From an uncultured bacterium (GTDB lineage: Bacteria; Auribacterota; UBA6266): a DNA stretch of 38,257 bases. The notes under the pieces are model-generated. The model saw only the letters and a program-made list of their open reading frames with translations, was not told the origin of the DNA and did no database searches. Below, piece after piece: positions 7,866 through 31,405 of this stretch (position 1 is its first letter; each line of letters begins with the position of its first letter). A program made the position numbers and the translations under genes. The DNA lies in contig CBDURG010000001.1 of the NCBI GenBank assembly GCA_965369805.1, positions 1 through 38,257 of the forward strand, in the 5' to 3' direction.

Positions 7866-9227
<1,362 letters not shown>

Positions 9228-9264
9228 TTACCTGCTTCCCGCCGCCAATATATGGGATAACTTT

Positions 9265-9312
9265 TAAACAAAAAAAGACAAAGACATCCCTACAGCCTGG
9301 GACATCCTTGTC
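9265..9312 (-). terminator. intrinsic terminator inside the gdhA leader
   Basis: RNA sense GACAAGGAUGUCCC-AGGCUGUA-GGGAUGUCUUUGUC (14 bp including 3 G-U) followed by UUUUUUUGUUU. It lies between the putative promoter and the gdhA start. Confidence 0.55.
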
Positions 9313-9329
9313 TCAATAACAAAATATTC

Positions 9330-9347
9330 TCGCGCACCATTGCGCAA
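9330..9347 (-). promoter_or_regulatory. hexaloop hairpin in the gdhA leader (candidate ANTAR-binding element)
   Basis: RNA sense UUGCGC-AAUGGU-GCGCGA. 6-bp stem, hexaloop with A at position 1 and G at position 4. Confidence 0.35.
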
Positions 9348-9358
9348 TTAGGGATATT

Positions 9359-9388
9359 ACGTTACAAAAAAATAAGAACTTTTGTCAA
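9359..9388 (-). promoter_or_regulatory. putative sigma-70-type promoter of gdhA
   Basis: CTTGACA (-35, 9383-9388), 18 nt spacer, TAACGT (weak -10). The same CTTGACA -35 context occurs upstream of glnA and of the porin-amtB operon. Confidence 0.3.
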
Positions 9389-9413
9389 GATTTTTTAAAA
9401 GGCATCTTATCGC

Positions 9414-9442
9414 TTGACTTAACCACAGCCGCTTTTTAAAAT
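9414..9442 (+). promoter_or_regulatory. putative sigma-70 promoter of nadE
   Basis: TTGACT (9414-9419), 17 nt spacer, TAAAAT (9437-9442). The -10 overlaps the first ATG of the ORF. Confidence 0.35.
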
Positions 9443-11135: not shown

Positions 11136-11837
11136 ATGAAGTTAAAAGAAGCACTTCGCGGCATATCTTATGGAATGTATATTGTTTCAACCGAATTCGA
11201 TGGCAAACTAAGTGGGCAAGTCGCGAATGTCTGCAGCCAGCTTACCTCTGACTCTCTCAAATTCGGAATCTGCCTGAACAAAAAGAATCTCACGTGTGAA
11301 ATAGTTCGGAAGAGCAAAAAGTTTTCTTTATCTGTTCTCTCTGATGATACTCCCCTGCCCTTTATAGCCAAATTTGGTTTTAGAACAGGCCGGGATATAA
11401 ACAAGTTTGCGGACACAAAGTATTTCATCTCAGAAAAAACAAATATACCTGTGGTTAGAGAACATTGTATCTCTTATCTTGAGGGCAAAGTCGAAAAAGA
11501 AGTTGAAATAGACACCCATATATTCTTCATTGCCGGCATAGTAAACGCGGATATTATTTCAGCCGGAAAGTCTTTAACTTACGCGGATTACCATAATATT
11601 AAAGGCGGCAAAACCGCGAAGAATGCCCCAACGTATATTGAAGAAATAGAAACAAATAAAAAAACAAAGGAAGGTAAAATGAAAAAATTCAAGTGCCTGG
11701 TTTGCGGCTATATTTATGACCCGGAAAATGGAGACCCGGAGCACGGCATAAAACCGGGGACCGCTTTTGAAGATATTCCTGACGACTGGACATGCCCTGT
11801 ATGCGGCGCGGAAAAAAATCAGTTTGAAGAAATATAG
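11136..11837 (+). CDS. flavin reductase-like domain fused to rubredoxin (high-molecular-weight rubredoxin type)
   Basis: 233 aa. N-terminal FMN-binding split-barrel-like region and C-terminal [13 protein letters not shown]...[10 protein letters not shown] rubredoxin. Confidence 0.85.
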
Positions 11838-11860
11838 ATTAAAACAAAAAGGAGAGCAAA

Positions 11861-12214
11861 ATGAGATTCGCGGATTACATCAAAACCAGGGAAGCCGAGG
11901 GAAAAGAAAAACACGTCCCGTCAATTGATATAAAAGAATGTTCTTCCTGTAATGAGCTTACAGTAACTGTTCAGGTGGGAAAGGAGGTAACACACCCGAG
12001 CACAGTCGAACACCATATTAAATATCTACAGCTTTTTGGTGAAAAAAACGATAATAAGTTCGTCCACATCACCACCATGGAACTGGGTGAAGAAAACACA
12101 CTTCCCCGAGGAAAAGTAAATATTAAGAAGGGCACTTTTAAAAATATCATCGCTCTTTCTTTTTGTAATATACACGGTGTATGGGAAAACAATTTGGAGG
12201 TAAAAAATGGCTAA
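11861..12214 (+). CDS. superoxide reductase, 1Fe (neelaredoxin) type
   Basis: 117 aa. EKHVP, HP..VEHHI and CNIHGVW ligand motifs. No N-terminal desulforedoxin domain. Confidence 0.85.
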   Translation: MRFADYIKTREAEGKEKHVPSIDIKECSSCNELTVTVQVGKEVTHPSTVEHHIKYLQLFGEKNDNKFVHITTMELGEENTLPRGKVNIKKGTFKNIIALSFCNIHGVWENNLEVKNG

Positions 12215-12800
12215 TCTAAAAGGGACAGAAACAGAAAAGAATCTTATTGCTTCATTCGCAGGTGAATCACAGGCAAGAAACAGGTACACCTATTACGCTT
12301 CAGCGGCAAAAAAAGAAGGCTATATGCAAATCGAAGCGATATTTCAGGAAACCGCGGATAACGAAAAAGAACATGCTAAAAGATTTTTTAAAATTTTAGT
12401 TAAAGAACTGGGCGCGCAAGAACCCGCGGCGTCCAGGGTTGAAGCCGACTTCCCTGTTTCACTTGGAAATACGCTTCAGAACCTTAAAGCGGCCGCAGCC
12501 GGTGAAAACGAAGAACACACCAAACTTTACCCGGAAGCGGCAAAAATTGCTGATGAAGAAGGATTCCCTGGAATAGCAAAGCAGTTCAGAGAAATAGCAG
12601 AAGTCGAAGCCGCGCATGAAAAAAGATATTTGAAACTTGCCGGTAACATCGAAAACGATACCGTATTTAAAAAGAGCGGCAAAGTACTCTGGAAATGCAG
12701 AAACTGCGGATACATTCACGAAGGTGCCGAGGCTCCTGATGAATGCCCGGCCTGCCTGCATCCACAGGCTTACTATGAAGTTCTATGCGAGAACTATTAA
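12207..12800 (+). CDS. rbr: rubrerythrin
   Basis: 197 aa. Ferritin-like diiron motifs (GESQARNRY, E..H pairs) and C-terminal CRNCG...CPAC rubredoxin-like site. Overlaps the SOR gene by 8 nt. Confidence 0.92.
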   Translation: MANLKGTETEKNLIASFAGESQARNRYTYYASAAKKEGYMQIEAIFQETADNEKEHAKRFFKILVKELGAQEPAASRVEADFPVSLGNTLQNLKAAAAGENEEHTKLYPEAAKIADEEGFPGIAKQFREIAEVEAAHEKRYLKLAGNIENDTVFKKSGKVLWKCRNCGYIHEGAEAPDECPACLHPQAYYEVLCENY

Positions 12801-13430: not shown

Positions 13431-13508
13431 GTAGTTACAACGGGAAGTGGATGAGGAAGAAAATGGGAAAAGTCCCAAGCAAGCGCAGCGAGCGGGTGGA
13501 CTGTCCCT
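13431..13508 (+). repeat. structured terminator-like repeat, copy A (intact, unoccupied intron target)
   Basis: GTAGTTACAACGGGAAGTG...AAGAAAATGGGAAAAGTCCCAAGCAAGCGCAGCGAGCGGGTGGACTGTCCCT. Near-identical to 28788-28853 plus 30746-30750 and to the reverse complement of 32354-32405. Lies between convergent ogg and the GAF-ANTAR gene. Confidence 0.8.
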
Positions 13509-13513
13509 ATTTA

Positions 13514-14278
13514 TTATTTTTTCTTTCTTCCCTGGCGCATGTCACATGCCAGAATCATCGCTTCCGCTATTTCCTTCATGGTTTTGCGATTATCCATGGC
13601 AAATTTTTGTATCTTATTATAGGCTTCCTGCTCTGTTAATTTTTCTTCTTCCATTAACAGGCCCTTTGCCTTCTCGATTTTTTTACGTGATTCAAGTTCT
13701 TCCTGTATCACCCTGGTTTTTACCATAAGTTCGGTGTTTTCAATCGCGACGGCGGCCTGATGGGCTATGGTCTTCAGTATGTTGATTTCGCCGTAGGAAA
13801 ACTCATGAGTAACCGGAGTATAACAATTTATAACACCTATAACCTTTCCCTTAACTGTAAGAGGCACACAAAGCAGCGACTTTAAACCCTCATTTTTAGC
13901 CATATCATGATATTTATATTCCTTTTCCAAACTGACATCTTTTACCGAAATCGGCTTGTTTTCTTTCGCGGCCTTGCCTGAAATCCCTTCGCCTATCTTA
14001 ATTGGGGGTTTTTTATTATATTCATCACTTACGCTCTGGGTTGCCCGTATTGTAAGTTCTTTCTTTCTCTCGTCAAGAAGCATTAAAGTACATATATTTG
14101 AGTTCATCACCTGAGCGGTAACCGCGACTATAAGTTTAAGAATGTCTTCAAGATAGTTATCCGAAGCAATCGCCTTGCTTATTTTAAACAGGGCTTCAAG
14201 CTGTTTCTCATTTTCTTTCATATCAAAATCCTCATTTTTTAATGTCGAGATAGCAAATTGCTTTTTGTTCAAGGACAT
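13514..14278 (-). CDS. GAF domain + ANTAR domain RNA-binding antiterminator
   Basis: GAF-like core (LMLLDERKKELTIRA...GEGISGKA...) and C-terminal ANTAR (ESRKKIEKAKGLLMEEEKLTEQEAYNKIQKFAMDNRKTMKEIAEAMI). The likely true start is the ATG at 14221 (MKENEKQ), preceded by GAGGA that overlaps the upstream gene's TGA stop. Confidence 0.85.
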   Translation of the reverse strand: MSLNKKQFAISTLKNEDFDMKENEKQLEALFKISKAIASDNYLEDILKLIVAVTAQVMNSNICTLMLLDERKKELTIRATQSVSDEYNKKPPIKIGEGISGKAAKENKPISVKDVSLEKEYKYHDMAKNEGLKSLLCVPLTVKGKVIGVINCYTPVTHEFSYGEINILKTIAHQAAVAIENTELMVKTRVIQEELESRKKIEKAKGLLMEEEKLTEQEAYNKIQKFAMDNRKTMKEIAEAMILACDMRQGRKKK

Positions 14279-16847
14279 CCGCGTTCAGGCATATCGGCCG
14301 GCCCGCTTCAATACTGTCGGAATCTATTACTTTTACAGCCTGAGAAAGTAATTTTTCAACAGGTATCAAAGAATCCAGCTTATTTTTAGTGTTATTAAAA
14401 AAACATCTGTTTATCGCGCTGTCTTTTTTCTCCGGAAAAACAGCAAAATATAACATATCTACTTCAACAAGGTCATTAAAAAAATGCGTTCCCAGCGATA
14501 TGTCCGGAATCAGGTTCTCATCCATAGCCGCGACTTCACATATAACAGAAACGGTATCTATCTCCGCGAATGAAACAGGCACGCCTAAAGAAGGCGTGGT
14601 GGTCCCCCATCTTCCCGGGCCGATAAGCATAATTTTGGGGATTTTTCCCTTGTCTTTGAGATGGGTAATCCGGCCGATTAAACGGGCAACGGAATATCTG
14701 TCTGTCATTTTCATTTTACTATAAACTTCAGGAACAACATAAATAATTCTGTCAACTGTCGTAGAAATACTGCTGCCGATAATCGGCCCTCTTGTTTTCA
14801 GCAATATCTGCTCGTCCTTTATAGATACCGGGGCCTTGACTTTCCGCAGGTTTCCTTTTATCTGAAACGGCCTGCATTGAAGCAGGTTTATGTTATAATC
14901 CTGCCGGTCGTCCAGAAAATTCGCCGTGAATTCCACATCCACGGGATGATTATAAGCTTTTTGAAGAATCTTAAGCATTTTCGCCATATCACCGACAAAT
15001 CCTGTTCTTAATAAAAGCTCGTCAAAAGTCAGCACCCATGAGAACACATTTTTTGTTCCGTATTCTCTGGCTTTTCTTTCAACTTCCTTATCACGGGAGG
15101 CAAACATCTTAAGGTCAAATTCAGGCGCTCCCCGCACCACTTCCTCAAAATCTTTTGTTATATAACGGTTGTCATGTAAGTCAAGAACATCCACACAATG
15201 CTGAGAGTACTTTCTAACATCAGCAAGGCTTCCTTCCGGGCGCCTCTCCGGCGCATTTAAAGCCACTAGCCGTGTATAATCATCGTCACTTCTGTCAACA
15301 GCGCGGGTCCCTAAACCAAAAACCAGACGGATCATTCCTTCTTCCGGTTTAATTTCATTGCTCCATACATAGGGATTAAATGAAAACCCAACACCCGCGA
15401 CCTGAGGAAAATACTGAGTACCATATATAGAGCCTGAAACCCTCTGTACTAAAATAGCCATTTGTTCATCCCGGTCCAGCAGGTTCCAGCGCGCCCGGTA
15501 AGCTATCGCCTCTTTGCTCATTGTGCTCGTATAGACTATCCTGACAGCTTCTATAAATTTCTCCAGACGTTCTTCGGGTGTTCCCTGATTCGCGCAAAAA
15601 ACACTCTCGTACTTCCCGGAAAAAGCGTTTCCATACGCGTCCTCAAGAAGGCTTGAAGACCTGACTATAATGGGGGACTGCCCAAAATAATCGAGCATCT
15701 CCGTAAACTGATTTTTAATATAGTCCGGAAACTTACCGGAAAGCATGCGCTGTCTGACTTCCATAAACCCATCAAAAGATGTACCCTCTCTTTTTATTCC
15801 GCGCCTTGCCCACCAACAGCCGTTTTCAATAATATATGTATAAAATACATCTGACCCGATAAAAAACGAATCGTGGCATTCAAGTTTGTCATGTAATTCT
15901 TTATCTTGATTCTTCACTATAGACCGGGCAAGCAGCATCCCGAGAGATTTGCCGCCGATCAGGCCTGTACCTATCATCCGTTTGCCTATACCAACCACAT
16001 CTTTCAGGCTAAAATATTTCTCTATAAGAGACAGAACCCGCGGGTCTCTTGAAACTACCATCCGGACAAGGCGGCTAAACAGGGTTTTTTCTCTTGAGTC
16101 TTCCGGTTTTTCGTCAGTGCCCGAGTCAACAATCTCCTGCGCTTTCGTAAAGCTTCGGGCCCAGATATCGTAGCGGTTTATCGTAAAATCAAGCCACGGC
16201 TGGGAAACTGACCCGAGTATTTCCGCGATTGCCGCGCTCCTTACTTCCGGGATAAACCTGTCACCATTCCACTTATGAGGCATACACATTGTCTTGGAAT
16301 GCCGCTCATACACCTTAAGAGGATAGACATAAAGCTCGCTTTTTCTACGATAAATATCAAGAACCACCTGCGCGGTGCCGTGTATGGCATCAACGGCATA
16401 TGAGGCATGGTGATTCCTTAAAAGCCCGAAATACGCGACCGTGTCAAAGGTATAAAGATAAGGACATGTAAGCATAAAAAAGTTTCCCAGCATACGGTCA
16501 CTGTACCAGTCAACCGCAAGCTCGGAAAGAGAATCAAAAACATAACAGGCGCCATAACCAAATTTTTCGATAACATCAAAAATTTCAGCAATAAATTTTT
16601 CAAAGCCGGCATCCGGATGAATTTCATAAACATGAGCAGGAACACCCTTGGGAATAAGATACTCATGAGCGGCAAAGCGAAAATAAATTAGAGCCCGGCC
16701 CTGCACGTGAGCCTTTTCGCAGAAAGGATGAACAAATGGAATATAATCCCCTACAGCATCTACCTGGAAAACAACATTATCACCCGGACATATCCCCTGC
16801 AGGATACTATCCAAATCCGGAAGCCCTGTACTAAAGTTTTTATCCAT
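14232..16847 (-). CDS. uncharacterised PEP/pyruvate-binding (PPDK_N ATP-grasp) domain protein with degenerate KaiC/RecA-like N-terminus
   Basis: 871 aa. N-terminus STGLPDLDSILQGICPGDNVVFQVD resembles the KaiC/RadA GIPGLD..L.GG...G lead-in but has no GxxGxGKT. Central GGKSLGMLLA...IIVRSSSLLEDAYGNAFSGKYESV is the PEP synthase/PPDK nucleotide-binding domain signature. No TSHAA phospho-His swivel motif seen. Confidence 0.75.
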   Translation of the reverse strand: MDKNFSTGLPDLDSILQGICPGDNVVFQVDAVGDYIPFVHPFCEKAHVQGRALIYFRFAAHEYLIPKGVPAHVYEIHPDAGFEKFIAEIFDVIEKFGYGACYVFDSLSELAVDWYSDRMLGNFFMLTCPYLYTFDTVAYFGLLRNHHASYAVDAIHGTAQVVLDIYRRKSELYVYPLKVYERHSKTMCMPHKWNGDRFIPEVRSAAIAEILGSVSQPWLDFTINRYDIWARSFTKAQEIVDSGTDEKPEDSREKTLFSRLVRMVVSRDPRVLSLIEKYFSLKDVVGIGKRMIGTGLIGGKSLGMLLARSIVKNQDKELHDKLECHDSFFIGSDVFYTYIIENGCWWARRGIKREGTSFDGFMEVRQRMLSGKFPDYIKNQFTEMLDYFGQSPIIVRSSSLLEDAYGNAFSGKYESVFCANQGTPEERLEKFIEAVRIVYTSTMSKEAIAYRARWNLLDRDEQMAILVQRVSGSIYGTQYFPQVAGVGFSFNPYVWSNEIKPEEGMIRLVFGLGTRAVDRSDDDYTRLVALNAPERRPEGSLADVRKYSQHCVDVLDLHDNRYITKDFEEVVRGAPEFDLKMFASRDKEVERKAREYGTKNVFSWVLTFDELLLRTGFVGDMAKMLKILQKAYNHPVDVEFTANFLDDRQDYNINLLQCRPFQIKGNLRKVKAPVSIKDEQILLKTRGPIIGSSISTTVDRIIYVVPEVYSKMKMTDRYSVARLIGRITHLKDKGKIPKIMLIGPGRWGTTTPSLGVPVSFAEIDTVSVICEVAAMDENLIPDISLGTHFFNDLVEVDMLYFAVFPEKKDSAINRCFFNNTKNKLDSLIPVEKLLSQAVKVIDSDSIEAGRPICLNADVLEQKAICYLDIKK

Positions 16848-16858
16848 ACAAACACACT

Positions 16859-18280
16859 TTACCCTAAAAGAAATCTATCAATTGCTTCCGCGCATCTTCT
16901 GCCTTCATTAATAGCCCATACAACAAGAGACTGGCCCCTTCTCATATCACCGGCAGAAAAAACATTTTTTACGGAAGTTATAAAATTTTCATTGGTTTTT
17001 ACATTTCCACGCTCATCTTTTTCAACACCCAGATTATCAACCAACCCGTTATGCAAAGGATGTAAGAAACCCGCGGCAAGGACTACAAGGCCGGCATCAA
17101 TTTCAAACTCGCTGTCCGGGATTTCTTTCATTAATGAACACCCTTGTTTATCAGCTTTTGAAAATTCAACTTTCTTACAGATAATCTTGCTAACCCGGCC
17201 ATTTTTGCCTACAAATTTTTTAGTTAACAGAGACCAATACCTTTCTCCCCCCTCTTCATGGCTGGTGGACGTTTTTAACATCATGGGATAGGACGGCCAG
17301 GGATAGTCATCAGTACGGCACCCCTCCGGTTTTGGCATAATCTCTATCTGAACAACACAATTTGCTCCCTGCCGATGTGCCGTTCCAACACAATCCGAAC
17401 CCGTATCCCCGCCGCCGATAACAACTACCCTTTTGCCCTTCGCGTCTATTAACTCTTCCGAAAAGTTTTCTCCTGAAACCCTTTTATTCTGCTGTGTCAG
17501 ATAATCCATCGCGAAATGAATACCTTTTAGTTCCCTTCCTTCTATTTCTAAATCTCTGGGAACCCGGGAACCACCGGCAAGACAAACAGCATCAAATTCT
17601 TTAAGCAGCTTAGAGACTCCATAATCAATTCCAACATTAACACCGGTAATAAACTTAATTCCTTCTTTCTCCAAGATATTTATACGTCTGTCTAAAATCC
17701 ACTTTTCAAGCTTAAAATCAGGAATTCCATATCTTAGTATCCCCCCTGCCTTTTTAGCTTTTTCAAAAACGACTACACTATGTCCATATCTGTTAAGTTG
17801 ATCCGCGCTCGAGATTCCTGCCGGGCCTGAACCCACCACAGCAATTTTTTTGCCGGTTCTGGATTCAGATACTCTCTGTTTTACAAATCCTTTTTCAAAA
17901 GCATACTCAATAATCGCAAGCTCGTTTTCCCTTACAGTTACCGGATCATCATTTGCTCCCAACACACACGCGTATTCACACGCGGCCGGGCAAACTCTCC
18001 CGGTTATTTCCGGCAGATTATTCATTGCGTCAAGAAGTCTATATGCCTTTTCCCAATGTCCATGGAACATAAGATCATTCCATTCCGGGACATAGTTTCC
18101 AACAGGACAAGCCCAATTACAAAAAGGAATCCCGCAATCCATGCAGCGGGATGCCTGTTCCATCGATTTCTTATCGGAGGGTATTTGAAATACCTCCCTA
18201 TAATCTTTAACACGTTCACAGACAGGCCTGAAGTCTGAAGTTTGCCGTTTAAATTTTAAAAACCCTTTTGGATCACCCAT
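16859..18280 (-). CDS. gltD: glutamate synthase (NADPH) small subunit
   Basis: 473 aa. N-terminal Cys clusters (C..C..C, CPA.CE..C), GSGPAG and GGGDTG dinucleotide folds. Overlaps the gltB stop by 8 nt. Confidence 0.93.
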   Translation of the reverse strand: MGDPKGFLKFKRQTSDFRPVCERVKDYREVFQIPSDKKSMEQASRCMDCGIPFCNWACPVGNYVPEWNDLMFHGHWEKAYRLLDAMNNLPEITGRVCPAACEYACVLGANDDPVTVRENELAIIEYAFEKGFVKQRVSESRTGKKIAVVGSGPAGISSADQLNRYGHSVVVFEKAKKAGGILRYGIPDFKLEKWILDRRINILEKEGIKFITGVNVGIDYGVSKLLKEFDAVCLAGGSRVPRDLEIEGRELKGIHFAMDYLTQQNKRVSGENFSEELIDAKGKRVVVIGGGDTGSDCVGTAHRQGANCVVQIEIMPKPEGCRTDDYPWPSYPMMLKTSTSHEEGGERYWSLLTKKFVGKNGRVSKIICKKVEFSKADKQGCSLMKEIPDSEFEIDAGLVVLAAGFLHPLHNGLVDNLGVEKDERGNVKTNENFITSVKNVFSAGDMRRGQSLVVWAINEGRRCAEAIDRFLLG

Positions 18281-21200
18281 CGGATATCTCTGTTAGCCCC
18301 AATTTTTCGTCTGTTTTTTTAGTTTCTAAAATCCGCTTGTATTCAACGGGAATTATCTTAACAAAACTTTTCAAACTCTTCTTAAAATCCCCCAAAATCA
18401 TTTCTGCCTTTTCGCTTTGAGTATATTTATAATGATTATGAACAAGTTCATGTATCGCTGCCTCATCCTCATCATCAATCACATCAATGTTAACCATATT
18501 TATATTGCATCTGCTTTCAATCATGTTGTCTTCATCAAAGACATATGCAATACCTCCAGACATACCCGCGGCAAAGTTTCTACCGGTTTTTCCCAATATC
18601 ACAATTCTCCCACCCGTCATGTATTCACAGCCGTGGTCCCCAACACCCTCAACAACAGCGTTAACTCCCGAGTTTCTGACACAAAATCTTTCACCGGCTA
18701 TACCTCTTATATATACCTCACCGCTTATAGCTCCATAAAAACTCGTATTGCCTACTATAATATTTTCGTGAGCTTTGTATTTAGAACGCCTATCCGGATA
18801 AATAATTATCTTCCCGCCTGAAATACCTTTGCCTATGTAATCATTGGTTATCCCTTCCAGCTCAAAAGTAACACCCTTTGTAAGCCAGGCTCCGAAACTC
18901 TGGCCTGCCACACCAGTGAATTTAAAATAAATAGTGTCGTTCGGAAGGCCTTCTTCACCGTAAATCCTGCAAATTTCCCCACTCAACATTGCCCCGGTAG
19001 ATCTATTAGTATTGCAAACGCTAATCTCTTCGCGCGTCTGTTCCCTGTTCAACAGGCTTCTGCGCGCCAGTTTGATAAGCCTGCGATCGAGGACATTATC
19101 AATACCATGATTTTGCCGTCTTTTGCAAAACGTATCTACATCCTTTTTAACATCAGGTTTATACAAAATATTTGAAAAATCAATCTGTAAAGCTTTCCAT
19201 GGAATTATATTCTTGTTTACTTCCAAGAAATCCGTTCTACCAATCATATCATCCAAATTTCTTATTCCAAGAGAAGCCATAATTTCACGAAGTTCCTGGG
19301 CAACAAAGTTCATATAAGTAACAATGTATTCCGGCCTTCCGCGAAACCTGCTCTGTAAAATAGGATCTTGAGTGGCTACACCCATAGAACAGTTATTTAA
19401 ATGGCAATGTCTTAACATTACACAACCAAGAATAACCAGGCAGGCAGAACAAGTTCCATACTCCTCCGCGCCAAGAAGAGCCGCTATAGCAATATCCCTT
19501 CCGGTTCTTATTTGTCCGTCAGTCTGCAAAACTACTCTGCCTCGAAGATTATTTAAAACAAGGGTCTGATGAGTTTCTGACAGGCCAAGTTCCCACGGAA
19601 GGCCCGCGTGCATTATTGAGCTTCGCGGAGATGCTCCTGTCCCGCCATCACTACCGGAGATTAGAATCATATCCGCGCGTCCTTTCGCAACGCCTGCCGC
19701 GACAGTTCCAACTCCGATTTCGGAAACAAGTTTTACACTTATCCGAGCTCTCGGATTTACATTTTTCAGATCAAAAATTAGCTGTGCAAGATCTTCAATC
19801 GAATATATGTCATGATGAGGCGGCGGTGAAATAAGTGTCACACCCGGGGTAGTATATCTCGTACTTGCTATTGTCACACTAACTTTATGGCCCGGAAGCT
19901 GGCCTCCTTCGCCCGGCTTAGCCCCTTGAGCGATTTTTATCTGTAATTCATCAGCATTAACCAGATAGTTTGTTGAAACACCGAATCTGCCGGAAGCAAT
20001 CTGTTTTATCGCGCTTCTTTTTGAATGTCCGCTACGAAGAGATACAAATCTTGATGGATCCTCCCCTCCTTCACCAGTGTTGGATTTCCCTCCAATCCTG
20101 TTCATCGCAAGGGCAATGCTTTCATGGGCATCCTTACTTATTGAGCCAAAGCTCATAGCGCCTGTAACAAATCGGCTGAAGATATTATGTATTGACTCAA
20201 CTTCATCTATCGAAACAGGTTTAACCTTTGTGAATTTCAACAAACTTCTTAAGGTCGCGGGGTTATTTGACTGATCATTTATTAAACAAGAAAACTCTTT
20301 ATATTTATCATAATCATCGTGTTTCGCGGCATCCTGGAGAGCCGCAATGCTTTCCGGATTCCACAGGTGAAACTCACCGTCTTTCTTCCATTGATAAACT
20401 CCTCCTACAGGCAGCAGTTTTGAATTCCCGCCTCTTACGCGATAAGCATCCCTGTGCCGGGTCAAGGTTTCCTTCGCGATTACCTCTATACCTGCCCCTT
20501 CAATACGAGACACTGTCCCGGTAAAACATTTCTCTATAATTTCTTTATCTAACCCAAGTGCTTCAAATATTTGCGCTCCCCTGTAACTGCGTAAAGTTGA
20601 GATACCCATTTTTGAAAGAATTTTTAATATACCTTTCTTAAGCGCGTTGATGTAATTTTTCTTTGCCACTTCTATTTCTGTATCCAGCATACCGTCCCTA
20701 ATCATATATTCAATGGAATCAAACGCCATATATGGGTTAACACAGCCCGCGCCAAACGCGAACAGGAGGGAAAAATGATGAACATCCCTTGGCTCTCCGC
20801 TCTCTAAAATTAGAGCAATCTGAGATCGGGATCCTTGCTTTACCAAATACTGATGAACAGCTCCCACAGCTATTAATGCCGGTATGGCGGCATAATCCTT
20901 ATTCACACCTCTGTCACTTAAAATTATAAAAGTATTGTTTTCCTTTATAGCCGCGGCAGCCTCAAGACAAATTCTCTCGAGAGTTTCTTGAAAAGAGCTT
21001 TCATCTTTAGATTTAAAAAGAATCGAAATTGTTTTTGAACAAAATCCTTTTTGATTAATTTTTCTAATCCTTTCCAAATCCGCGTTTGAAAGTATAGGAT
21101 GTTTAAGCTTCAATTTGCCGCAATGCAACGGTGTTTCATCAAGAAGATTCCTTCTTGTTCCCATGTAACATTCCAGGCTCATGACAAGTTCTTCGCGTAT

Positions 21201-22802
21201 AGGGTCAATCGGCGGATTTGTCACTTGAGCAAACAATTGTTTAAAATAATTATAAACAAGCTGCGGTCTCTTGGACAGGACCGCGTGCGGAGTATCATTA
21301 CCCATAGAGCCTATCGCTTCTCCACCGTTTTCGGCCATGGGCTTAATGATAAATTTTAAATCTTCTCTTGTATAACCAAATGCTTTGAGAAGGGGAATAA
21401 CATCTTTATTTCCCTTTTTGTTATAATCCGGTTCAGGCAAATCTTCAATTCTGACCATATTTTTTTTAAGCCAACTACCATAAGGTTTGCCTGAAGAAAC
21501 TTCTTCTTTCAGCTCTTTATTATCAACTACTTTCTTTTTTCCGGTATCTACATAAAGCATTTTGCCGGGTTCAAGCCTCCCTGAAACCTTAATGTCACCG
21601 GGATCTATATCAAGAACACCAACCTCTGAAGCCATTACTAATAAATCATTTCTCGTAATAATATACCTCGCGGGCCTGAGTCCGTTCCTGTCAAGAACCG
21701 CGCCCAGACAAGTCCCATCCGTAAAAGCAACGGCAGCGGGGCCATCCCATGGTTCCATCAGGCAGGCATGATATTGATAAAAAGCCCTAAGCTTCTCGTC
21801 CATAAACGCGTCCTGTTCCCAGGCTGAAGGAATTAACATCATCATGGCATGCGGTAAAGATCTGCCTGATAGGATCAGCAATTCAAAAACGTTGTCCAAA
21901 ACCGCGGAATCACTGCCGCCGGGAACAATTACAGGTTTTATTTTCTCAATATCTTCCCCGAAATAACTGCTGTTTAACAGCCCTTCCTTCGCACGCATCC
22001 AATTAACATTGCCGCGAAGTGTATTTATTTCACCATTGTGGGCAAGAAATCTGAAAGGCTGGGATAAATCCCAGGAAGGAAAAGTATTTGTACTGTATCT
22101 TGAATGAACAATACACAATGAACTCGCGAGCTTTTCATCTCCCAGATCAGGAAAAAACTTTTCAAGCTGAGAAGGCATGAGAAGCCCTTTATAGATAAAG
22201 GTACGGCAGGAAATATTGGTAATATAAAAAAAAGCCTTCTGCTTCAGTTTTGAATTTCTTATAACATTTTCCACATATTTTCTTATTAAATAAAGTTTTC
22301 TTTCAAAATCCAGCGTGTCTTTTATGTTTTCGTTCCGGGAAATAAATATTTGCTCTATTACCGGCCTTATCTCCTTTGCGGTTTTACCTATAACAGATTC
22401 ATCAACAGGCACTTCTCTCCAGCCAAGAACTTTCTGTCCCAATTCTTCAACCGCTTTACTGAAAAGCTTCTTGCAGAAAATACGTTCCTTTTTATCAACA
22501 GGAAGGAAAATAAGTCCGGTACCGTAACTGCCGGGAGGAGGCAGGCCTATCTTCATTTCACCGCATTTTTCGACAAAAAAATCATGCGGTATCTGTATAA
22601 GAATTCCCGCTCCATCCCCTGTCTTTGGATCCGAACCTGTCGCGCCGCGGTGTGACAGGCGCTTTAAAACCTTTAACCCCTGGACTATAATTTCATGGGT
22701 TTTTTTACCTTTAACATTGCACACAAAACCGACCCCGCAGCTGTCATGTTCAAACCGCGGATCGTAAAGCCCCTGCTTTTTGAAAAACTGATTCTCTTCC
22801 AT
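18273..22802 (-). CDS. gltB: glutamate synthase large subunit
   Basis: 1509 aa. Ntn amidotransferase Cys (HDSCGVGF), central domain, FMN/3Fe-4S domain, C-terminal GXGXG beta-helix repeats. Confidence 0.97.
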   Translation of the reverse strand: MEENQFFKKQGLYDPRFEHDSCGVGFVCNVKGKKTHEIIVQGLKVLKRLSHRGATGSDPKTGDGAGILIQIPHDFFVEKCGEMKIGLPPPGSYGTGLIFLPVDKKERIFCKKLFSKAVEELGQKVLGWREVPVDESVIGKTAKEIRPVIEQIFISRNENIKDTLDFERKLYLIRKYVENVIRNSKLKQKAFFYITNISCRTFIYKGLLMPSQLEKFFPDLGDEKLASSLCIVHSRYSTNTFPSWDLSQPFRFLAHNGEINTLRGNVNWMRAKEGLLNSSYFGEDIEKIKPVIVPGGSDSAVLDNVFELLILSGRSLPHAMMMLIPSAWEQDAFMDEKLRAFYQYHACLMEPWDGPAAVAFTDGTCLGAVLDRNGLRPARYIITRNDLLVMASEVGVLDIDPGDIKVSGRLEPGKMLYVDTGKKKVVDNKELKEEVSSGKPYGSWLKKNMVRIEDLPEPDYNKKGNKDVIPLLKAFGYTREDLKFIIKPMAENGGEAIGSMGNDTPHAVLSKRPQLVYNYFKQLFAQVTNPPIDPIREELVMSLECYMGTRRNLLDETPLHCGKLKLKHPILSNADLERIRKINQKGFCSKTISILFKSKDESSFQETLERICLEAAAAIKENNTFIILSDRGVNKDYAAIPALIAVGAVHQYLVKQGSRSQIALILESGEPRDVHHFSLLFAFGAGCVNPYMAFDSIEYMIRDGMLDTEIEVAKKNYINALKKGILKILSKMGISTLRSYRGAQIFEALGLDKEIIEKCFTGTVSRIEGAGIEVIAKETLTRHRDAYRVRGGNSKLLPVGGVYQWKKDGEFHLWNPESIAALQDAAKHDDYDKYKEFSCLINDQSNNPATLRSLLKFTKVKPVSIDEVESIHNIFSRFVTGAMSFGSISKDAHESIALAMNRIGGKSNTGEGGEDPSRFVSLRSGHSKRSAIKQIASGRFGVSTNYLVNADELQIKIAQGAKPGEGGQLPGHKVSVTIASTRYTTPGVTLISPPPHHDIYSIEDLAQLIFDLKNVNPRARISVKLVSEIGVGTVAAGVAKGRADMILISGSDGGTGASPRSSIMHAGLPWELGLSETHQTLVLNNLRGRVVLQTDGQIRTGRDIAIAALLGAEEYGTCSACLVILGCVMLRHCHLNNCSMGVATQDPILQSRFRGRPEYIVTYMNFVAQELREIMASLGIRNLDDMIGRTDFLEVNKNIIPWKALQIDFSNILYKPDVKKDVDTFCKRRQNHGIDNVLDRRLIKLARRSLLNREQTREEISVCNTNRSTGAMLSGEICRIYGEEGLPNDTIYFKFTGVAGQSFGAWLTKGVTFELEGITNDYIGKGISGGKIIIYPDRRSKYKAHENIIVGNTSFYGAISGEVYIRGIAGERFCVRNSGVNAVVEGVGDHGCEYMTGGRIVILGKTGRNFAAGMSGGIAYVFDEDNMIESRCNINMVNIDVIDDEDEAAIHELVHNHYKYTQSEKAEMILGDFKKSLKSFVKIIPVEYKRILETKKTDEKLGLTEISDG

Positions 22803-22885: not shown

Positions 22886-24994
22886 TTACATCATAAACAT
22901 CATTTCAGCATATGTAGCAAGCGGCCACTTTTCATCGGGAACCAACCCCTCAAGAGCATCAACAAATCCCCGAAGTTTCACCGTGGCCGTGATTTTCTCC
23001 TTTGATGAACCTTTCTTTATGGCTTTCTCAAGCCCGCTTATTGAAACAAGCGCGCCTTCTGTCTTTGCGCATACTTCAGAAAGCAAAGCCTTTGTTGATT
23101 TTAACGCGTTTTTCCTGTCAACCTTAGAAACAGCGTTGATGGTTTCGGCCAATTCACTCTGGTACTCCAAAGCCGCGTTAATAACCTGTGTTTTAGCTAT
23201 TGTTACCGCTACTTCCGATTCAACCTGGATAATTTCATCATACTCTTTTTGATAAACCTCAAACCTTGACTTAAGCTCTTTCTCTGATAAAACCTTATAC
23301 TTTTCAAAAAGCTTAACCGTTTTTACATCCAGGAGGATTTTTAAGGATTCAGGCGTTGTTTTCAGATTAGAAAGCCCTCTCTTCTTTGCTTCTGAATGCC
23401 AAGCCTTAGTATAATTATCCCCATTAAATAAAATACGTTTATGTTCTTTAACTATCTTCCGCAGTATTTTCTGTAAAGATTTGTTGAACTCTTTTTTCGC
23501 GGAAACATCTTTTTCCAGTGAAGCGCAAATATCATCAATCGCCGCCGCGACAATCGTGTTTAATACTATGTTTGGGCCGGCACAGTTCTGGTTTGAGCCT
23601 ACCGCACGGAATTCGAACTTATTCCCGGTAAAGGCAAACGGCGATGTCCTGTTCCTGTCGGTCGCGTCTCTCGGGAGGGTTGGAAGCGAAGAAACCCCGA
23701 TTTTTATAAAACCGCCGCTCTTAGAAGTTTTGGCCTCACCTCTTTCTATCTGGCCGATCACACCCGTTAATTGTTCTCCAAGAAAAATTGACAAAATCGC
23801 GGGGGGTGCCTCATTGGCTCCAAGCCTGTGGTCATTACCCGCGGTAGCTACCGAGGCTCTTAATATCTCCGCGTGAGTATCCACCGCCTTGATAAGCGCG
23901 CAAATCAGAGTTAGAAACTTCGCGTTATCATGCGGGTTATCTCCCGGGCTCAGCCAGTTTTTACCATCCGGGCCTTTTATCGACCAGTTATTGTGTTTGC
24001 CCGAACCATTAACGCCGGCAAACGGCTTTTCATGAAGAAGGCACACAAAATCATGATCTTCGGCTACCTTACGCAGAACTTCCATAAGCATCATGTTATG
24101 GTCAACAGATAAATTTAACCCTTCATAAACGGACGCGACTTCAAACTGGCCGGGACAAACCTCGTTATGGCGGGTTTTCGCCGGAATACCAAGCTTCCAT
24201 AGCTCTCTGTCAAAATCATCCATAAAAGTCATTACCCTGTCTTTAATAGCACCAAAATAATGATCTTCCATTTGCTGGTGTTTTGCCGGTGCTTTGCCGA
24301 ATATTGTTCTTCCGGTTTGAATAAGGTCAAGCCGGCTCTCATAAAAGGCTTTGTCTATAAGAAAATATTCCTGTTCCGCTCCGAGAGTCGCGTAAGCTTT
24401 TCTGCCGCCATCTTTAATTTTAAACAGCCTGCCCAGGCGGCACACCTGCTCTGATAAAGCTTCCATAGATCTCAGGAGAGGAGTTTTTTTGTCCAGAGAA
24501 TCGCCGTGATACCCGCAAAATACGGTCGGGATGCAGAGAGTAGCCCCATTTTCTCCCTCTTTTATAAACGCGGGGCTGGTCGGATCCCAGGCAGTGTATC
24601 CCCTTGCTTCAAAAGTCGACCTTAATCCTCCGGACGGAAAACTTGAAGCATCGGGCTCCCCCTGAATTAATTCTTTACCTGAAAATTGAAGTATTACCCC
24701 TCCCTCAGAATCCGGGACAATAAAGGAATCATGCTTTTCTGCCGTTGTCCCGGTCAGGGGCTGAAACCAATGAGTAAAATGGGTCGCCCCCTTTGAAACC
24801 GCCCAGTTTTTCATGGCATCGGCAACTTCATCGGCAATGGCCGGATTTAGTGACTTTCCCTTCTCCATCGTTTCTTTCAAAGAGTTAATCGCCTTATCCG
24901 AAAGATAATTGCGCATTGTTTTAAAGCTAAACACGTTTTGGCCATAAATCTCTGTTATCGCTTTTGCCGGGTCCAGTTCAGATTTCCTACTCAT
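22886..24994 (-). CDS. glnN: glutamine synthetase type III
   Basis: 702 aa. GSIII-type N-terminal domain (ATHFTHWFQPLTG) and catalytic domain motifs (HNEVCPGQFE, NGSGKHNNWS). Confidence 0.93.
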   Translation of the reverse strand: MSRKSELDPAKAITEIYGQNVFSFKTMRNYLSDKAINSLKETMEKGKSLNPAIADEVADAMKNWAVSKGATHFTHWFQPLTGTTAEKHDSFIVPDSEGGVILQFSGKELIQGEPDASSFPSGGLRSTFEARGYTAWDPTSPAFIKEGENGATLCIPTVFCGYHGDSLDKKTPLLRSMEALSEQVCRLGRLFKIKDGGRKAYATLGAEQEYFLIDKAFYESRLDLIQTGRTIFGKAPAKHQQMEDHYFGAIKDRVMTFMDDFDRELWKLGIPAKTRHNEVCPGQFEVASVYEGLNLSVDHNMMLMEVLRKVAEDHDFVCLLHEKPFAGVNGSGKHNNWSIKGPDGKNWLSPGDNPHDNAKFLTLICALIKAVDTHAEILRASVATAGNDHRLGANEAPPAILSIFLGEQLTGVIGQIERGEAKTSKSGGFIKIGVSSLPTLPRDATDRNRTSPFAFTGNKFEFRAVGSNQNCAGPNIVLNTIVAAAIDDICASLEKDVSAKKEFNKSLQKILRKIVKEHKRILFNGDNYTKAWHSEAKKRGLSNLKTTPESLKILLDVKTVKLFEKYKVLSEKELKSRFEVYQKEYDEIIQVESEVAVTIAKTQVINAALEYQSELAETINAVSKVDRKNALKSTKALLSEVCAKTEGALVSISGLEKAIKKGSSKEKITATVKLRGFVDALEGLVPDEKWPLATYAEMMFMM

Positions 24995-25071: not shown

Positions 25072-25118
25072 AAACAAAAAAAGGCACTCAAAAACCCTGC
25101 AGGTTTAAGAACGCCTTT
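25072..25118 (-). terminator. intrinsic terminator inside the glnA leader
   Basis: RNA sense AAAGGCGUUCUUAAACC-CUGCAG-GGUUUUUGAGUGCCUUU (about 15 bp with a 2x2 internal loop) followed by UUUUGUUU. Lies about 75 nt upstream of the glnN ATG. Confidence 0.55.
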
Positions 25119-25135
25119 GTCATATTTTTTTCGGC

Positions 25136-25151
25136 GGTACAACTTTGTACC
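25136..25151 (-). promoter_or_regulatory. hexaloop hairpin in the glnA leader (candidate ANTAR-binding element)
   Basis: RNA sense GGUAC-AAAGUU-GUACC. 5-bp stem, hexaloop with A1 and G4. Sits about 17 nt upstream of the leader terminator. Confidence 0.4.
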
Positions 25152-27931: not shown

Positions 27932-27976
27932 TAAAACAAAAAAGCCCTTTTCAAGCGAATATCTTTGCTTGAAAGG
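27932..27976 (-). terminator. intrinsic terminator inside the porin-amtB leader
   Basis: RNA sense CCUUUCAAGC-AAAGAUAUUC-GCUUGAAAAGG (10 bp, one bulge) followed by GCUUUUUUGUUUU. Confidence 0.6.
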
Positions 27977-28066
27977 ACTTCATTATCCGAATATAAAAAA
28001 AGACGCTCTTCCAAACGCCTCATTGCAAAAACCTCAGCACATCCCCTGTACCGCACTACAGATTAC

Positions 28067-28853: not shown

Positions 28854-28886
28854 GTCGAGTAGACGTTTATTTCAACGCCCCTCACA

Positions 28887-28919
28887 GAACCGTACTTGAG
28901 GTTTTCCCTCATACGGCTC
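28887..28919 (-). ncRNA. group II intron domain V (catalytic hairpin)
   Basis: Matches the canonical GAGCCGUAU...GAAA...GUACGGUUC architecture with the AGC triad. Confidence 0.8.
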
Positions 28920-28934
28920 TTCAGTAAATCTCAC

Positions 28935-31399: not shown

Positions 31400-31405
31400 A
31401 TTTCC

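What the first reader, a model, noticed from the sequence alone, without database searches (positions are those of the whole stretch)
13514..16847. Unknown KaiC-like/PEP-utilising ATP-grasp protein coupled to a GAF-ANTAR antiterminator at the tail of the glutamate synthase operon
Seen in the sequence:
- gltB, gltD, an 871-aa ORF and a GAF-ANTAR gene are packed head to tail on the minus strand.
- gltB and gltD overlap by 8 nt.
- The gap from the gltD stop to the 871-aa ORF ATG is 11 nt with no Shine-Dalgarno.
- The TGA stop of the 871-aa ORF sits inside the GAGGA ribosome-binding site of the probable ANTAR start at 14221.

The 871-aa protein combines three parts:
- an N-terminus resembling the KaiC/RadA GIPGLD..L.GG lead-in but with no Walker A (pseudo-ATPase-like);
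- a clear PEP synthase/PPDK nucleotide-binding ATP-grasp signature (IIVRSSSLLEDAYGNAFSGKYESV);
- a long C-terminal region (GPGRWGTTTP, GTHFFNDL) without a recognisable phospho-His swivel motif.

Inference: this is not a metabolic PEP synthase. It may be a sensory or modifying partner of the GAF-ANTAR regulator, together setting antitermination of nitrogen-assimilation operons (see the leader findings). ANTAR regulators are usually paired with a histidine kinase or a ligand-binding domain. I know of no ANTAR/PPDK_N-like pairing, so this is a candidate undescribed regulatory module.
Basis: partly seen in the sequence, partly recalled or inferred. Interest (0 to 1): 0.78.

Follow-up and report, generated by a model that had tools for sequence, protein, structure and literature searches.

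The report
Unknown ATP-grasp protein beside glutamate synthase
A very widespread but uncharacterised three-domain ATP-using protein sits at the end of a glutamate synthase operon. Comparison with 160 related loci shows that it travels with glutamate-making enzymes in many phyla, not with the RNA-binding regulator next to it.

Summary
On the minus strand of this Candidatus Auribacterota window, gltB, gltD, an 871-aa ORF (X871) and a GAF-ANTAR gene are packed head to tail, with the junctions exactly as described.

X871 has three parts:
- a KaiC/RecA-fold N-domain with no Walker A;
- an intact PPDK_N ATP-grasp;
- a confidently modelled C-terminal domain with no match in PDB or Pfam.

It is not a PEP synthase: it has no phospho-His swivel domain and no PEP/pyruvate domain.

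The proposed X871/ANTAR regulatory pair is not supported. ANTAR lies directly next to X871 in 3 of 80 X871 loci. X871 lies near ANTAR in 3 of 80 ANTAR loci, always convergent.

X871 belongs to a large family, 52-65% identical across more than 10 bacterial phyla and in archaea. Its only recurrent neighbours are gltB/gltD and gdhA: 52/80 loci carry nitrogen-assimilation genes within 10 kb, and 35/80 are immediately adjacent.

The GAF-ANTAR protein looks like a self-contained one-component regulator. Two-hexaloop/terminator leaders precede glnA3, gdhA and amtB.

X871 is most likely an ATP-dependent phosphotransfer enzyme serving the 2-oxoglutarate-to-glutamate step; its substrate is unknown. I found no literature on the family.

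The parts
18273..22802 (-). gltB, glutamate synthase large subunit (1509 aa)
   Evidence: ORF. Pfam GATase_2, Glu_syn_central, Glu_synthase, GXGXG.
16859..18280 (-). gltD, glutamate synthase small subunit (473 aa). Overlaps gltB by 8 nt.
   Evidence: ORF. Pfam Fer4_20 + Pyr_redox_2.
14232..16847 (-). X871: 871-aa three-domain protein of an uncharacterised family. Starts 11 nt after the gltD stop.
   Evidence: More than 8000 relatives. 94% identical orthologue in Ca. Auribacterota MAG JAGLRQ010000040.
16239..16847 (-). X871 residues 1-203: RecA/KaiC-fold domain without a Walker A (pseudo-ATPase). Many invariant polar residues, e.g. the D113-W-x-S-D-R118 motif.
   Evidence: Foldseek hits to KaiC, RecA and PH0284, E about 1e-8. 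No [AG]xxxxGK[ST] in the N-domain of 24 members. No PF06745 hit.
15963..16238 (-). X871 residues 204-295: helical linker region
   Evidence: Secondary structure of the AF2 model.
14823..15962 (-). X871 residues 296-675: PPDK_N-type ATP-grasp nucleotide-binding domain. The motifs GGK300, R396SSS..ED, E639 and Q657-x-R659 are invariant.
   Evidence: Pfam PF01326 E 2e-46, covering model positions 3-323 of 328. Foldseek to rifampin phosphotransferase 5hv1, E 4e-12. Invariant columns.
14235..14822 (-). X871 residues 676-871: family-specific alpha/beta C-terminal domain with GPGRWGTTTP and SLGTH788FFND. Always found after PPDK_N in this family.
   Evidence: AF2 of residues 665-871, pLDDT 88.4. Best PDB match E 0.3. 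No Pfam hit. 1433 cluster representatives carry this domain. The GTHFF motif is kept in distant variants P0270 and P0158.
14229..14233 (-). GAGGA ribosome-binding site of the ANTAR gene. Overlaps the X871 TGA stop (14232-14234) and lies 7 nt before ATG 14221.
   Evidence: Sequence.
13514..14221 (-). GAF-ANTAR one-component regulator (235 aa from ATG 14221; an alternative ATG at 14278 gives 254 aa)
   Evidence: Pfam GAF_2 and ANTAR. Orthologue alignment supports the 14221 start. GAF is closest to the GAF domains of PtsP and NifA.
13464..13477 (-). Terminator-like hairpin plus T-run after the ANTAR gene. Likely end of the operon.
22886..24994 (-). glnA type III glutamine synthetase, upstream in the same gene string
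   Evidence: Pfam GSIII_N, Gln-synt_C, Gln-synt_C-ter.
25110..25151 (-). Candidate ANTAR target in the glnA3 leader: P1 GGUAC-AAAGUU-GUACC and P2 GAC-AAAGGC-GUU. P2 lies in the 5' half of an intrinsic terminator.
   Evidence: Motif scan. RNA fold, z = -3.0. Same motif in L001 and L008 upstream of glnA3.
9301..9347 (-). Candidate ANTAR target in the gdhA leader: P1 UUGCGC-AAUGGU-GCGCGA and P2 GAC-AAGGAU-GUC, inside the terminator stem.
   Evidence: RNA fold, z = -5.9. Similar motif upstream of gdhA in L038.
27975..28027 (-). Candidate ANTAR target plus terminator in the leader of orf250-amtB-glnK. Weaker match than the other two leaders.
   Evidence: z = -2.2. Similar motifs upstream of orf250 in L007 and L036.

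Best explanation
The region is the 3' end of a nitrogen-assimilation gene string in a Candidatus Auribacterota genome: amtB-glnK, glnA3, gltB, gltD, X871, GAF-ANTAR.

Shown:
- X871 belongs to a large, strongly conserved, uncharacterised family. Its core is an intact PPDK_N ATP-grasp followed by a family-specific C-terminal domain. Here it is preceded by a RecA/KaiC-fold domain that has lost its P-loop.
- Across many phyla its only recurrent gene neighbours are the two glutamate-forming enzymes: GOGAT (gltBD) and GDH (gdhA, sometimes with an NfnA/B-like pair).
- The ANTAR gene is a neighbour only sporadically.

Inferred:
- X871 is an ATP-dependent phosphotransfer enzyme of the dikinase lineage. 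It has replaced the usual swivelling His domain with its own C-terminal domain.
- The family-wide invariant His788 sits after a flexible loop and is the candidate phosphate carrier.
- X871 serves the 2-oxoglutarate-to-glutamate step. It more likely acts on a small molecule than on a protein, because all characterised PPDK_N enzymes I know of act on metabolites or glucans.
- The P-loop-less RecA-like domain would act as an oligomerisation or binding platform.

The GAF-ANTAR protein works on its own:
- Its GAF domain senses a nitrogen-status metabolite. By analogy with the PtsP and NifA GAF domains this would be 2-oxoglutarate or glutamine.
- Its ANTAR domain binds two-hexaloop RNA elements in the leaders of glnA3, gdhA and orf250-amtB-glnK and prevents termination.
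- Placing it last in the gltBD-X871 operon gives co-expression, not a dedicated X871/ANTAR partnership.
For: Architecture:
- Pfam finds PPDK_N only.
- Foldseek matches rifampin phosphotransferase/HpeI (ATP-grasp) and KaiC/RecA.
- The C-domain model (pLDDT 88) has no PDB match.
- No Walker A in the N-domain.
- ATP-grasp motif residues and many polar residues in all three domains are invariant among 24 sequences from different phyla.

Family size and conservation:
- More than 8000 relatives; the listed ones are 58-67% identical to the query.
- 1433 cluster representatives carry the C-domain, in the checked cases after PPDK_N.

Synteny centred on X871:
- 52/80 species-representative loci have gltB/gltD/gdhA/glnA3/amtB/glnK within 10 kb. 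35/80 are within 500 nt of gltB, gltD, gdhA or glnA3.
- The arrangements differ: upstream of gltB in Fibrobacterota, Spirochaetota, Elusimicrobiota, Bacteroidales and Verrucomicrobiota; downstream of gltD in Auribacterota and Omnitrophota; beside gdhA in Planctomycetota, Verrucomicrobiota and Asgard archaea.
- Unbiased clustering of all neighbours gives gltD-like (29 loci), gltB (28) and gdhA (20) as the only frequent families.
- A distant NTase-fused variant also lies 0.9 kb from a GDH gene.

ANTAR:
- Directly adjacent in 3/80 loci and within 10 kb in 8/80. The reciprocal count is 3/80, all convergent.
- ANTAR autonomy: GAF + ANTAR domains, with the GAF closest to PtsP and NifA.
- Two-hexaloop + terminator motifs occur in three N-gene leaders: 9 observed against 0.9 in shuffles; folds.
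- The same motif type precedes glnA3, glnK, orf250 and gdhA in loci that carry ANTAR. It is absent upstream of X871 elsewhere, 1/73.
Against: - No biochemical or genetic data exist, and I found no literature.
- 28/80 loci show no nitrogen gene within 10 kb. That includes all 9 Methanomassiliicoccales loci.
- Two relatives sit next to alpha-glucan genes: Geobacter OR-1 and L006.
- The role of His788 and any phosphotransfer are inferred from conservation only. I could not inspect model coordinates to see whether His788 can reach the ATP site.
- In this lineage the X871 stop lies inside the ANTAR ribosome-binding site. That would allow translational coupling, so a lineage-specific functional link cannot be excluded.
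- The ANTAR target motif is short and degenerate. Some of the 9 hits lie in coding sequence and are probably chance.
Confidence: 0.55

Rival explanations
1. First reader's model. X871 is a sensory or modifying partner of the GAF-ANTAR regulator. Together they form a new two-protein antitermination module for nitrogen-assimilation operons.
For: - In the window and its 94%-identical relative L001 the genes are head to tail, with the X871 stop inside the ANTAR ribosome-binding site.
- Both genes belong to nitrogen clusters.
- ANTAR proteins with separate partner proteins are known (AmiC/AmiR, NasS/NasT; own knowledge).
Against: - Adjacency is not conserved: 3/80 from the X871 side and 3/80 from the ANTAR side, the latter all convergent.
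- X871 occurs in many phyla and in archaea with no ANTAR gene nearby.
- The regulator has its own GAF sensor.
- X871 has an intact catalytic ATP-grasp and enzyme-like conservation.
Confidence: 0.07
2. X871 is a protein-modifying regulator: a phosphotransferase, coupled to a nucleotidyltransferase in some relatives. It controls GOGAT and/or GDH activity after translation in lineages that may lack GlnD/GlnE-type control. This would be functionally analogous to PknG-GarA control of GDH and GOGAT in actinobacteria.
For: - It sits next to two different enzymes that share only substrate and product.
- Some family members carry a C-terminal Pol-beta-type nucleotidyltransferase domain (PF01909), the fold used by GlnE and GlnD (own knowledge).
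- A P-loop-less RecA-like domain is a plausible protein-binding platform.
Against: - No characterised PPDK_N enzyme that I know of phosphorylates a protein (own knowledge).
- Very high sequence conservation and a patchy cross-domain distribution are more typical of metabolic enzymes.
- No interaction data.
- I did not test whether these genomes lack GlnD/GlnE.
Confidence: 0.2
3. X871 is a divergent but genuine PEP synthase/PPDK-type enzyme, as annotation pipelines name it. It would supply PEP, and through it oxaloacetate and 2-oxoglutarate carbon skeletons, for ammonium assimilation.
For: - JGI and NCBI name relatives 'pyruvate, water dikinase' or 'PEP synthase'.
- The closest NCBIfam model for the ATP-grasp is TIGR01418 PEP synthase, E 7e-14.
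- The metabolic logic of carbon-skeleton supply fits.
Against: - The score of 51 bits is far below the 740-bit cut-off.
- There is no PF00391 His domain and no PF02896 PEP/pyruvate domain in any of 24 members.
- The C-domain model matches no PpsA, PPDK or Enzyme I structure.
- No GGxTSHAA motif is encoded within 10 kb in 80 loci.
Confidence: 0.06
4. The family's real role lies outside nitrogen metabolism, for example alpha-glucan or other carbohydrate phosphorylation like plant glucan, water dikinase. The gltBD/gdhA linkage would then be a by-product of co-regulation.
For: - The Geobacter OR-1 tandem fusion lies between an alpha-amylase-family gene and pgi.
- L006 lies next to a 4-alpha-glucanotransferase.
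- Methanomassiliicoccales loci have no nitrogen genes nearby.
Against: - Only two such contexts, against 52 nitrogen-linked loci.
- Unbiased neighbour clustering finds no carbohydrate family among the frequent neighbours.
- Pfam detects no carbohydrate-binding module.
Confidence: 0.05

Closest known systems
PEP synthase (PpsA, TIGR01418) and pyruvate phosphate dikinase
   Same: Homologous PPDK_N ATP-grasp nucleotide-binding domain with the GGK, RSS..ED, E and QxR motifs conserved.
   Different: No phospho-His swivel domain (PF00391) and no PEP/pyruvate TIM-barrel (PF02896). Has an extra N-terminal RecA-like domain and an unrelated C-terminal domain.
Rifampin phosphotransferase (RPH, PDB 5hv1) and the split dikinase HpeHI (HpeI, PDB 9goj): small-molecule dikinases
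   Same: Best structural matches for the ATP-grasp (E 4e-12 and 1.5e-9). Same modular logic: an ATP-grasp plus other domains that bind the substrate.
   Different: RPH has a rifampin-binding domain and a C-terminal His swivel. X871 has neither. Sequence identity is 15-17%.
KaiC/RecA-superfamily ATPases (KaiC, RecA, PH0284; COG0467)
   Same: The N-domain has the RecA/KaiC fold and the 'TGLPxLDxxLxG' lead-in. JGI names one relative a KaiC/GvpD/RAD55 family ATPase.
   Different: No Walker A in any family member's N-domain. No PF06745 hit. Fused to an ATP-grasp.
ANTAR antiterminators: AmiR, NasR, EutV, and Geobacter GnfR, which controls nitrogen genes (own knowledge)
   Same: ANTAR output domain. 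Candidate two-hexaloop targets overlap terminators in the leaders of nitrogen genes.
   Different: The input is a GAF domain rather than a receiver, NIT or pseudo-receiver domain. No kinase or partner gene is conserved next to it.

Membership tests
PEP synthase / PPDK dikinases | PPDK_N ATP-grasp nucleotide-binding domain | tested here: met
   PF01326 E 2e-46, model positions 3-323 of 328. Present in all 24 relatives.
PEP synthase / PPDK dikinases | Phospho-His swivel domain (PF00391, GGxTSHAA motif) | tested here: not met
   No Pfam hit at E up to 10 in 24 members. The C-domain model has no match to any dikinase or Enzyme I structure. No motif in any frame of the window or the 80 loci.
PEP synthase / PPDK dikinases | PEP/pyruvate-binding TIM-barrel domain (PF02896) | tested here: not met
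   No hit. TIGR01418 scores 51 bits against a 740-bit cut-off.
Rifampin-phosphotransferase-type small-molecule dikinases | ATP-grasp plus C-terminal His swivel domain and a central substrate-binding domain | tested here: not met
   RPH hits are limited to the ATP-grasp: the profile search aligns only X871 355-473, and Foldseek gives TM 0.29 over the whole chain. NF041857 scores 29 bits against a 999-bit cut-off.
KaiC/RecA-like ATPases | RecA-like alpha/beta fold | tested here: met
   Foldseek to KaiC, RecA and PH0284, E 1e-8 to 1e-7, about 225-240 aligned columns.
KaiC/RecA-like ATPases | Walker A P-loop GxxxxGK[ST] | tested here: not met
   Absent from the N-domain of all 24 members.
KaiC/RecA-like ATPases | Sequence-profile membership (PF06745) | tested here: not met
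   No hit at E up to 10.
ANTAR antiterminators (the 235-aa protein) | ANTAR RNA-binding domain | tested here: met
   PF03861 E 2e-18, model positions 3-54 of 54.
ANTAR antiterminators (the 235-aa protein) | N-terminal signal-input domain | tested here: met
   GAF_2 E 1e-22. Closest to the GAF domains of PtsP and NifA.
ANTAR antiterminators (the 235-aa protein) | Target RNAs: two hairpins with ANNGNN hexaloops, the second competing with a terminator | tested here: inconclusive
   Such elements lie in the glnA3, gdhA and amtB-operon leaders and in orthologous loci. The motif is degenerate and binding is untested.
Two-protein ANTAR systems (partner + ANTAR, as in AmiC/AmiR or NasS/NasT) | Partner gene conserved next to the ANTAR gene | tested here: not met
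   X871 is next to ANTAR in 3/80 and 3/80 loci.
Two-protein ANTAR systems (partner + ANTAR, as in AmiC/AmiR or NasS/NasT) | Physical interaction that controls RNA binding | not testable with these tools
   No multimer prediction or experiment was available.

The most novel reading that the evidence does not exclude
X871 defines a new class of ATP-grasp phosphotransferase. It uses a non-swivel, family-specific His domain and a P-loop-less RecA-like platform. It acts as a so far unknown control or accessory step of glutamate synthesis, shared by Fibrobacterota, Spirochaetota, the PVC phyla, Omnitrophota, Elusimicrobiota and Asgard archaea. One possibility is covalent regulation of GOGAT and GDH, which would fill the role that GlnD/GlnE/NtrBC or PknG-GarA play elsewhere.
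Probability: 0.2. Interest if true: 0.85.

Novelty: new variant of a known kind. Interest (0 to 1): 0.55.

Why it matters
Glutamate synthase and glutamate dehydrogenase are the entry points of nitrogen into biomass. Their control is well understood only in a few model phyla.

Here a very large, strongly conserved protein family, currently mislabelled 'PEP synthase' or 'pyruvate, water dikinase', is linked to exactly these two enzymes across many poorly studied anaerobic phyla and Asgard archaea. It has a domain combination and a C-terminal fold with no precedent in PDB or Pfam.

Working out its substrate would add a missing component to nitrogen assimilation in these lineages. It would also correct a widespread annotation error.

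The result also removes a tempting but unsupported idea, a PPDK_N/ANTAR regulatory pair. It points instead to a self-contained GAF-ANTAR regulon covering glnA3, gdhA and amtB.

Tried and rejected
- Sequence searches of X871 against PDB. The single sequence gave nothing. The profile gave only ATP-grasp hits to PEP synthase and RPH.
- Modelling the C-domain alone to test for a hidden swivel domain: no PDB match.
- Regex search for a phospho-His domain encoded in trans near X871 in 80 loci and the window: none.
- Neighbours in loci without nitrogen genes: unrelated genes (TIG-domain proteins, CorA, MFS, CNNM, PEMT, MarR, hydantoinase A), nothing recurrent.
- ANTAR-type leaders upstream of X871 in other phyla: 1/73, at background level.
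- Rfam scan of the window: only a group II intron, no known riboswitch or leader.
- Six literature searches on the family, on the PPDK_N/KaiC combination and on GAF-ANTAR nitrogen control: nothing relevant.
- Considered and set aside for lack of evidence: a 5-oxoprolinase-like or glutamine-synthetase-like ATP-grasp activity. The single hydantoinase-A neighbour in one archaeon is not visibly conserved in two other Methanomassiliicoccales loci, judged from ORF sizes.
- Not used: padloc and PHROGs scans, and the viral fold library. The nitrogen-gene context made a defence or phage role unlikely.

Full report
**1. Observation**

The four minus-strand ORFs are as described:
- gltB 18273-22802. Pfam: GATase_2, Glu_syn_central, Glu_synthase, GXGXG.
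- gltD 16859-18280. Pfam: Fer4_20 + Pyr_redox_2.
- An 871-aa ORF at 14232-16847, called X871 here.
- A GAF-ANTAR ORF ending at 13514.

The junctions also check out.
- gltB and gltD overlap by 8 nt.
- The gltD TAA is followed by 11 nt and then the X871 ATG, with no good Shine-Dalgarno.
- The X871 TGA (14234-14232) lies inside GAGGA (14233-14229), 7 nt before ATG 14221.
- Eight orthologues of the regulator align from that ATG, so the 235-aa product is the likely one.
- A terminator-like hairpin follows the regulator gene at 13477-13464.

Upstream on the same strand lie glnA type III, glnK and amtB. gdhA and a glutamine-dependent nadE lie at 7866-11093. The window is 94% identical at the protein level to a Candidatus Auribacterota MAG (L001).

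**2. What X871 is**

Sequence profiles:
- Pfam finds only PPDK_N (residues 296-675, E 2e-46) in X871 and in all 24 aligned relatives, even at E up to 10. There is no PF00391, PF02896 or PF06745.
- NCBIfam gives only sub-threshold ATP-grasp hits. PEP synthase scores 51 bits against a 740-bit cut-off.

Structure:
- An AF2 model built on a 24-sequence alignment is confident (pLDDT 81.7, pTM 0.82).
- Foldseek against PDB matches rifampin phosphotransferase and HpeI (E 4e-12 and 1.5e-9) and KaiC/RecA/PH0284 (E about 1e-8). I assign these to the ATP-grasp and to the N-domain respectively; the output lists no query coordinates.
- No Walker A exists in the N-domain of any of the 24 members.
- The C-terminal 207 residues, modelled alone at pLDDT 88.4, have no significant PDB match (best E 0.3, TM about 0.3). 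This domain is therefore not the swivelling phospho-His domain of PpsA, PPDK, Enzyme I or RPH.
- No GGxTSHAA-type motif is encoded in any frame of the window or of the 80 related loci.

Conservation:
- The ATP-grasp motifs are invariant: GGK300, R396SSS..ED, E639, Q657-x-R659. Their equivalence to the ATP/Mg ligands of PPDK rests on my knowledge of that family.
- All three domains carry many invariant polar residues.
- The C-domain occurs in 1433 cluster representatives. In the six checked where Pfam detects the ATP-grasp, it directly follows PPDK_N (a seventh had no Pfam hit).
- Variants include forms without the N-domain (about 510-670 aa), tandem fusions (P0079, about 1470 aa) and forms with a C-terminal Pol-beta nucleotidyltransferase domain (P0214, P0270).
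- (S/T)HFF around His788 is kept in two distant variants inspected, whereas TTTP is not.

**3. Comparative genomics**

X871 has more than 8000 relatives. The 120 best listed ones that were scored share 58-67% identity over the full length. Named sources include Omnitrophota, Auribacterota, Fibrobacterota, Chitinivibrionales, Spirochaetales, Geobacter and Methanomassiliicoccales.

I took 80 loci from species-representative genomes and searched them by tblastn with the window's nitrogen-assimilation proteins.
- 52/80 have gltB, gltD, gdhA, glnA3, amtB or glnK within 10 kb.
- 35/80 are within 500 nt of gltB, gltD, gdhA or glnA3.

The arrangement differs by lineage:
- X871 then gltB then gltD in Fibrobacterota, Spirochaetota, Elusimicrobiota, a Bacteroidales MAG and Verrucomicrobiota.
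- gltD then X871 in Auribacterota and some Omnitrophota.
- gdhA next to X871, on either strand, in Planctomycetota, Verrucomicrobiota, Omnitrophota, Syntrophaceae and two Asgard/archaeal loci.
- glnA3 divergent from X871 in some PVC and delta-proteobacterial MAGs.
- In Omnitrophota L008 and L036 the order is nfnA-like, gltD-like, gdhA, X871.

Further support:
- An unbiased all-against-all clustering of every neighbouring ORF within 6 kb gives gltD-like (29 loci), gltB (28) and gdhA (20) as the only frequent families.
- The distant NTase-fused variant P0270 lies 0.9 kb from a GDH gene, with an N-less paralogue directly upstream.
- For single-copy genes in genomes of a few Mb, chance co-location within 10 kb is below about 1% per gene. 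This figure is reasoning, not a computation.

Exceptions:
- All nine Methanomassiliicoccales loci and several Planctomycetales loci have no nitrogen genes nearby, and their other neighbours are not recurrent.
- Geobacter OR-1 and L006 lie next to alpha-glucan genes.

**4. The ANTAR link**

From the X871 side, a GAF-ANTAR orthologue is directly adjacent in 3/80 loci:
- L001, the window's own lineage.
- L033, upstream of X871.
- L008, convergent.

It is within 10 kb in 8/80, all Auribacterota, Omnitrophota, Elusimicrobiota or unclassified MAGs.

From the ANTAR side I took 80 metagenome loci with 53-74% identical orthologues. Many are short contigs.
- X871 is present in 3, each time on the opposite strand.
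- nadE is present in 13 (12 immediately downstream), gdhA in 9, glnK in 8 and gltB in 5.

So both genes belong to nitrogen clusters, but they are not a conserved pair.

The regulator carries its own sensor. Its GAF domain scores best against the GAF regions of PtsP (E 6e-19) and NifA (E 4e-13). Both are reported to respond to 2-oxoglutarate and/or glutamine (my knowledge).

A simple scan looked for two ANNGNN-hexaloop hairpins followed by a T-run. It finds 9 sites in the window against 0.9 in shuffles.
- Three sit between promoter-like boxes and strong terminators, in the leaders of glnA3 (25151-25110), gdhA (9347-9301) and orf250-amtB (28027-27975).
- In the glnA3 and gdhA leaders the second hairpin lies inside the 5' half of the terminator stem.
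- The same motif type precedes glnA3, glnK, orf250 or gdhA in ANTAR-bearing loci L001, L007, L008, L036 and L038.
- It does not precede X871 in other phyla (1/73).

**5. Interpretation**

Shown:
- X871 is a real, widespread, uncharacterised three-domain protein.
- It is not a PEP synthase.
- Its ATP-grasp is intact.
- Its genomic partner is the glutamate-forming step, not ANTAR.

Inferred:
- X871 is an ATP-dependent phosphotransfer enzyme, with the C-domain (His788) taking the place of the swivel domain.
- It serves the 2-oxoglutarate-to-glutamate node.
- I favour a metabolite substrate over a protein target, but I cannot separate the two.
- The GAF-ANTAR protein is best read as a one-component antiterminator for glnA3, gdhA and amtB-glnK. 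Its position at the operon tail is lineage-specific packaging.

I found no paper on this family.

**6. Verdict**

- Novelty: a new architectural variant of the PPDK_N ATP-grasp enzymes, with an unassigned function and a previously unreported, phylum-spanning link to GOGAT and GDH.
- Interest is moderate to high for nitrogen-metabolism and enzyme-discovery specialists, limited by the absence of any functional test.

Noticed in passing
window 25110-25151(-), 9301-9347(-), 27975-28027(-): The leaders of glnA3, gdhA and orf250-amtB-glnK each carry a two-hexaloop (ANNGNN) hairpin pair. The second hairpin overlaps an intrinsic terminator, as expected for ANTAR targets. The amtB-operon leader has two further terminator-like hairpins, down to about 27880.
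   Followed up: partly
window 28854-30713(-): A group II intron (Rfam RF02005 and RF00029) with an intron-encoded reverse transcriptase ORF at 28935-30272. It lies just upstream of the nitrogen cluster.
   Followed up: no
window 27063-27815(-): A 250-aa ORF with no Pfam match lies directly upstream of amtB. It has relatives (31-33% identity) in Omnitrophota loci L007 and L036 and in metagenome locus L105; in L036 it also lies just upstream of amtB. It may be an unrecognised member of the ammonium-uptake operon.
   Followed up: partly
loci L111, L117, L118, L122, L125, L129-L131, L133, L134, L136, L161; window 9441-11093(+): GAF-ANTAR orthologues lie next to a glutamine-dependent NAD synthetase gene (nadE) in 12 of 80 metagenome loci: immediately upstream of it in 11, immediately downstream in L111. 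This suggests nadE belongs to the ANTAR regulon. In the window nadE is divergent from gdhA.
   Followed up: no
P0214, P0270 (locus L163 8001-11234), P0079 (locus L082), P0121: X871-family variants include tandem double modules and forms fused to a C-terminal Pol-beta nucleotidyltransferase domain. P0270 has an N-less paralogue directly upstream and a GDH gene 0.9 kb downstream.
   Followed up: partly
L008 6130-9874; L036 6141-9886: In Omnitrophota, X871 follows an nfnA-like (FAD/NAD/Fe-S) gene, a gltD-like gene and gdhA. This looks like a GDH module with its own NADPH supply.
   Followed up: partly
L082 4500-14052: In Geobacter sp. OR-1 the tandem X871-like fusion lies between a 1149-aa alpha-amylase-family gene and pgi. 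L006 has a 4-alpha-glucanotransferase next to X871. This is a minority carbohydrate context and remains unexplained.
   Followed up: no
window 30788-32248(-) and 11136-12800(+): A restriction-modification pair (MutH-like endonuclease plus N6/N4 DNA methylase). Separately, an oxidative-stress cluster (flavin reductase-rubredoxin, desulfoferrodoxin, rubrerythrin), typical of an anaerobe.
   Followed up: no
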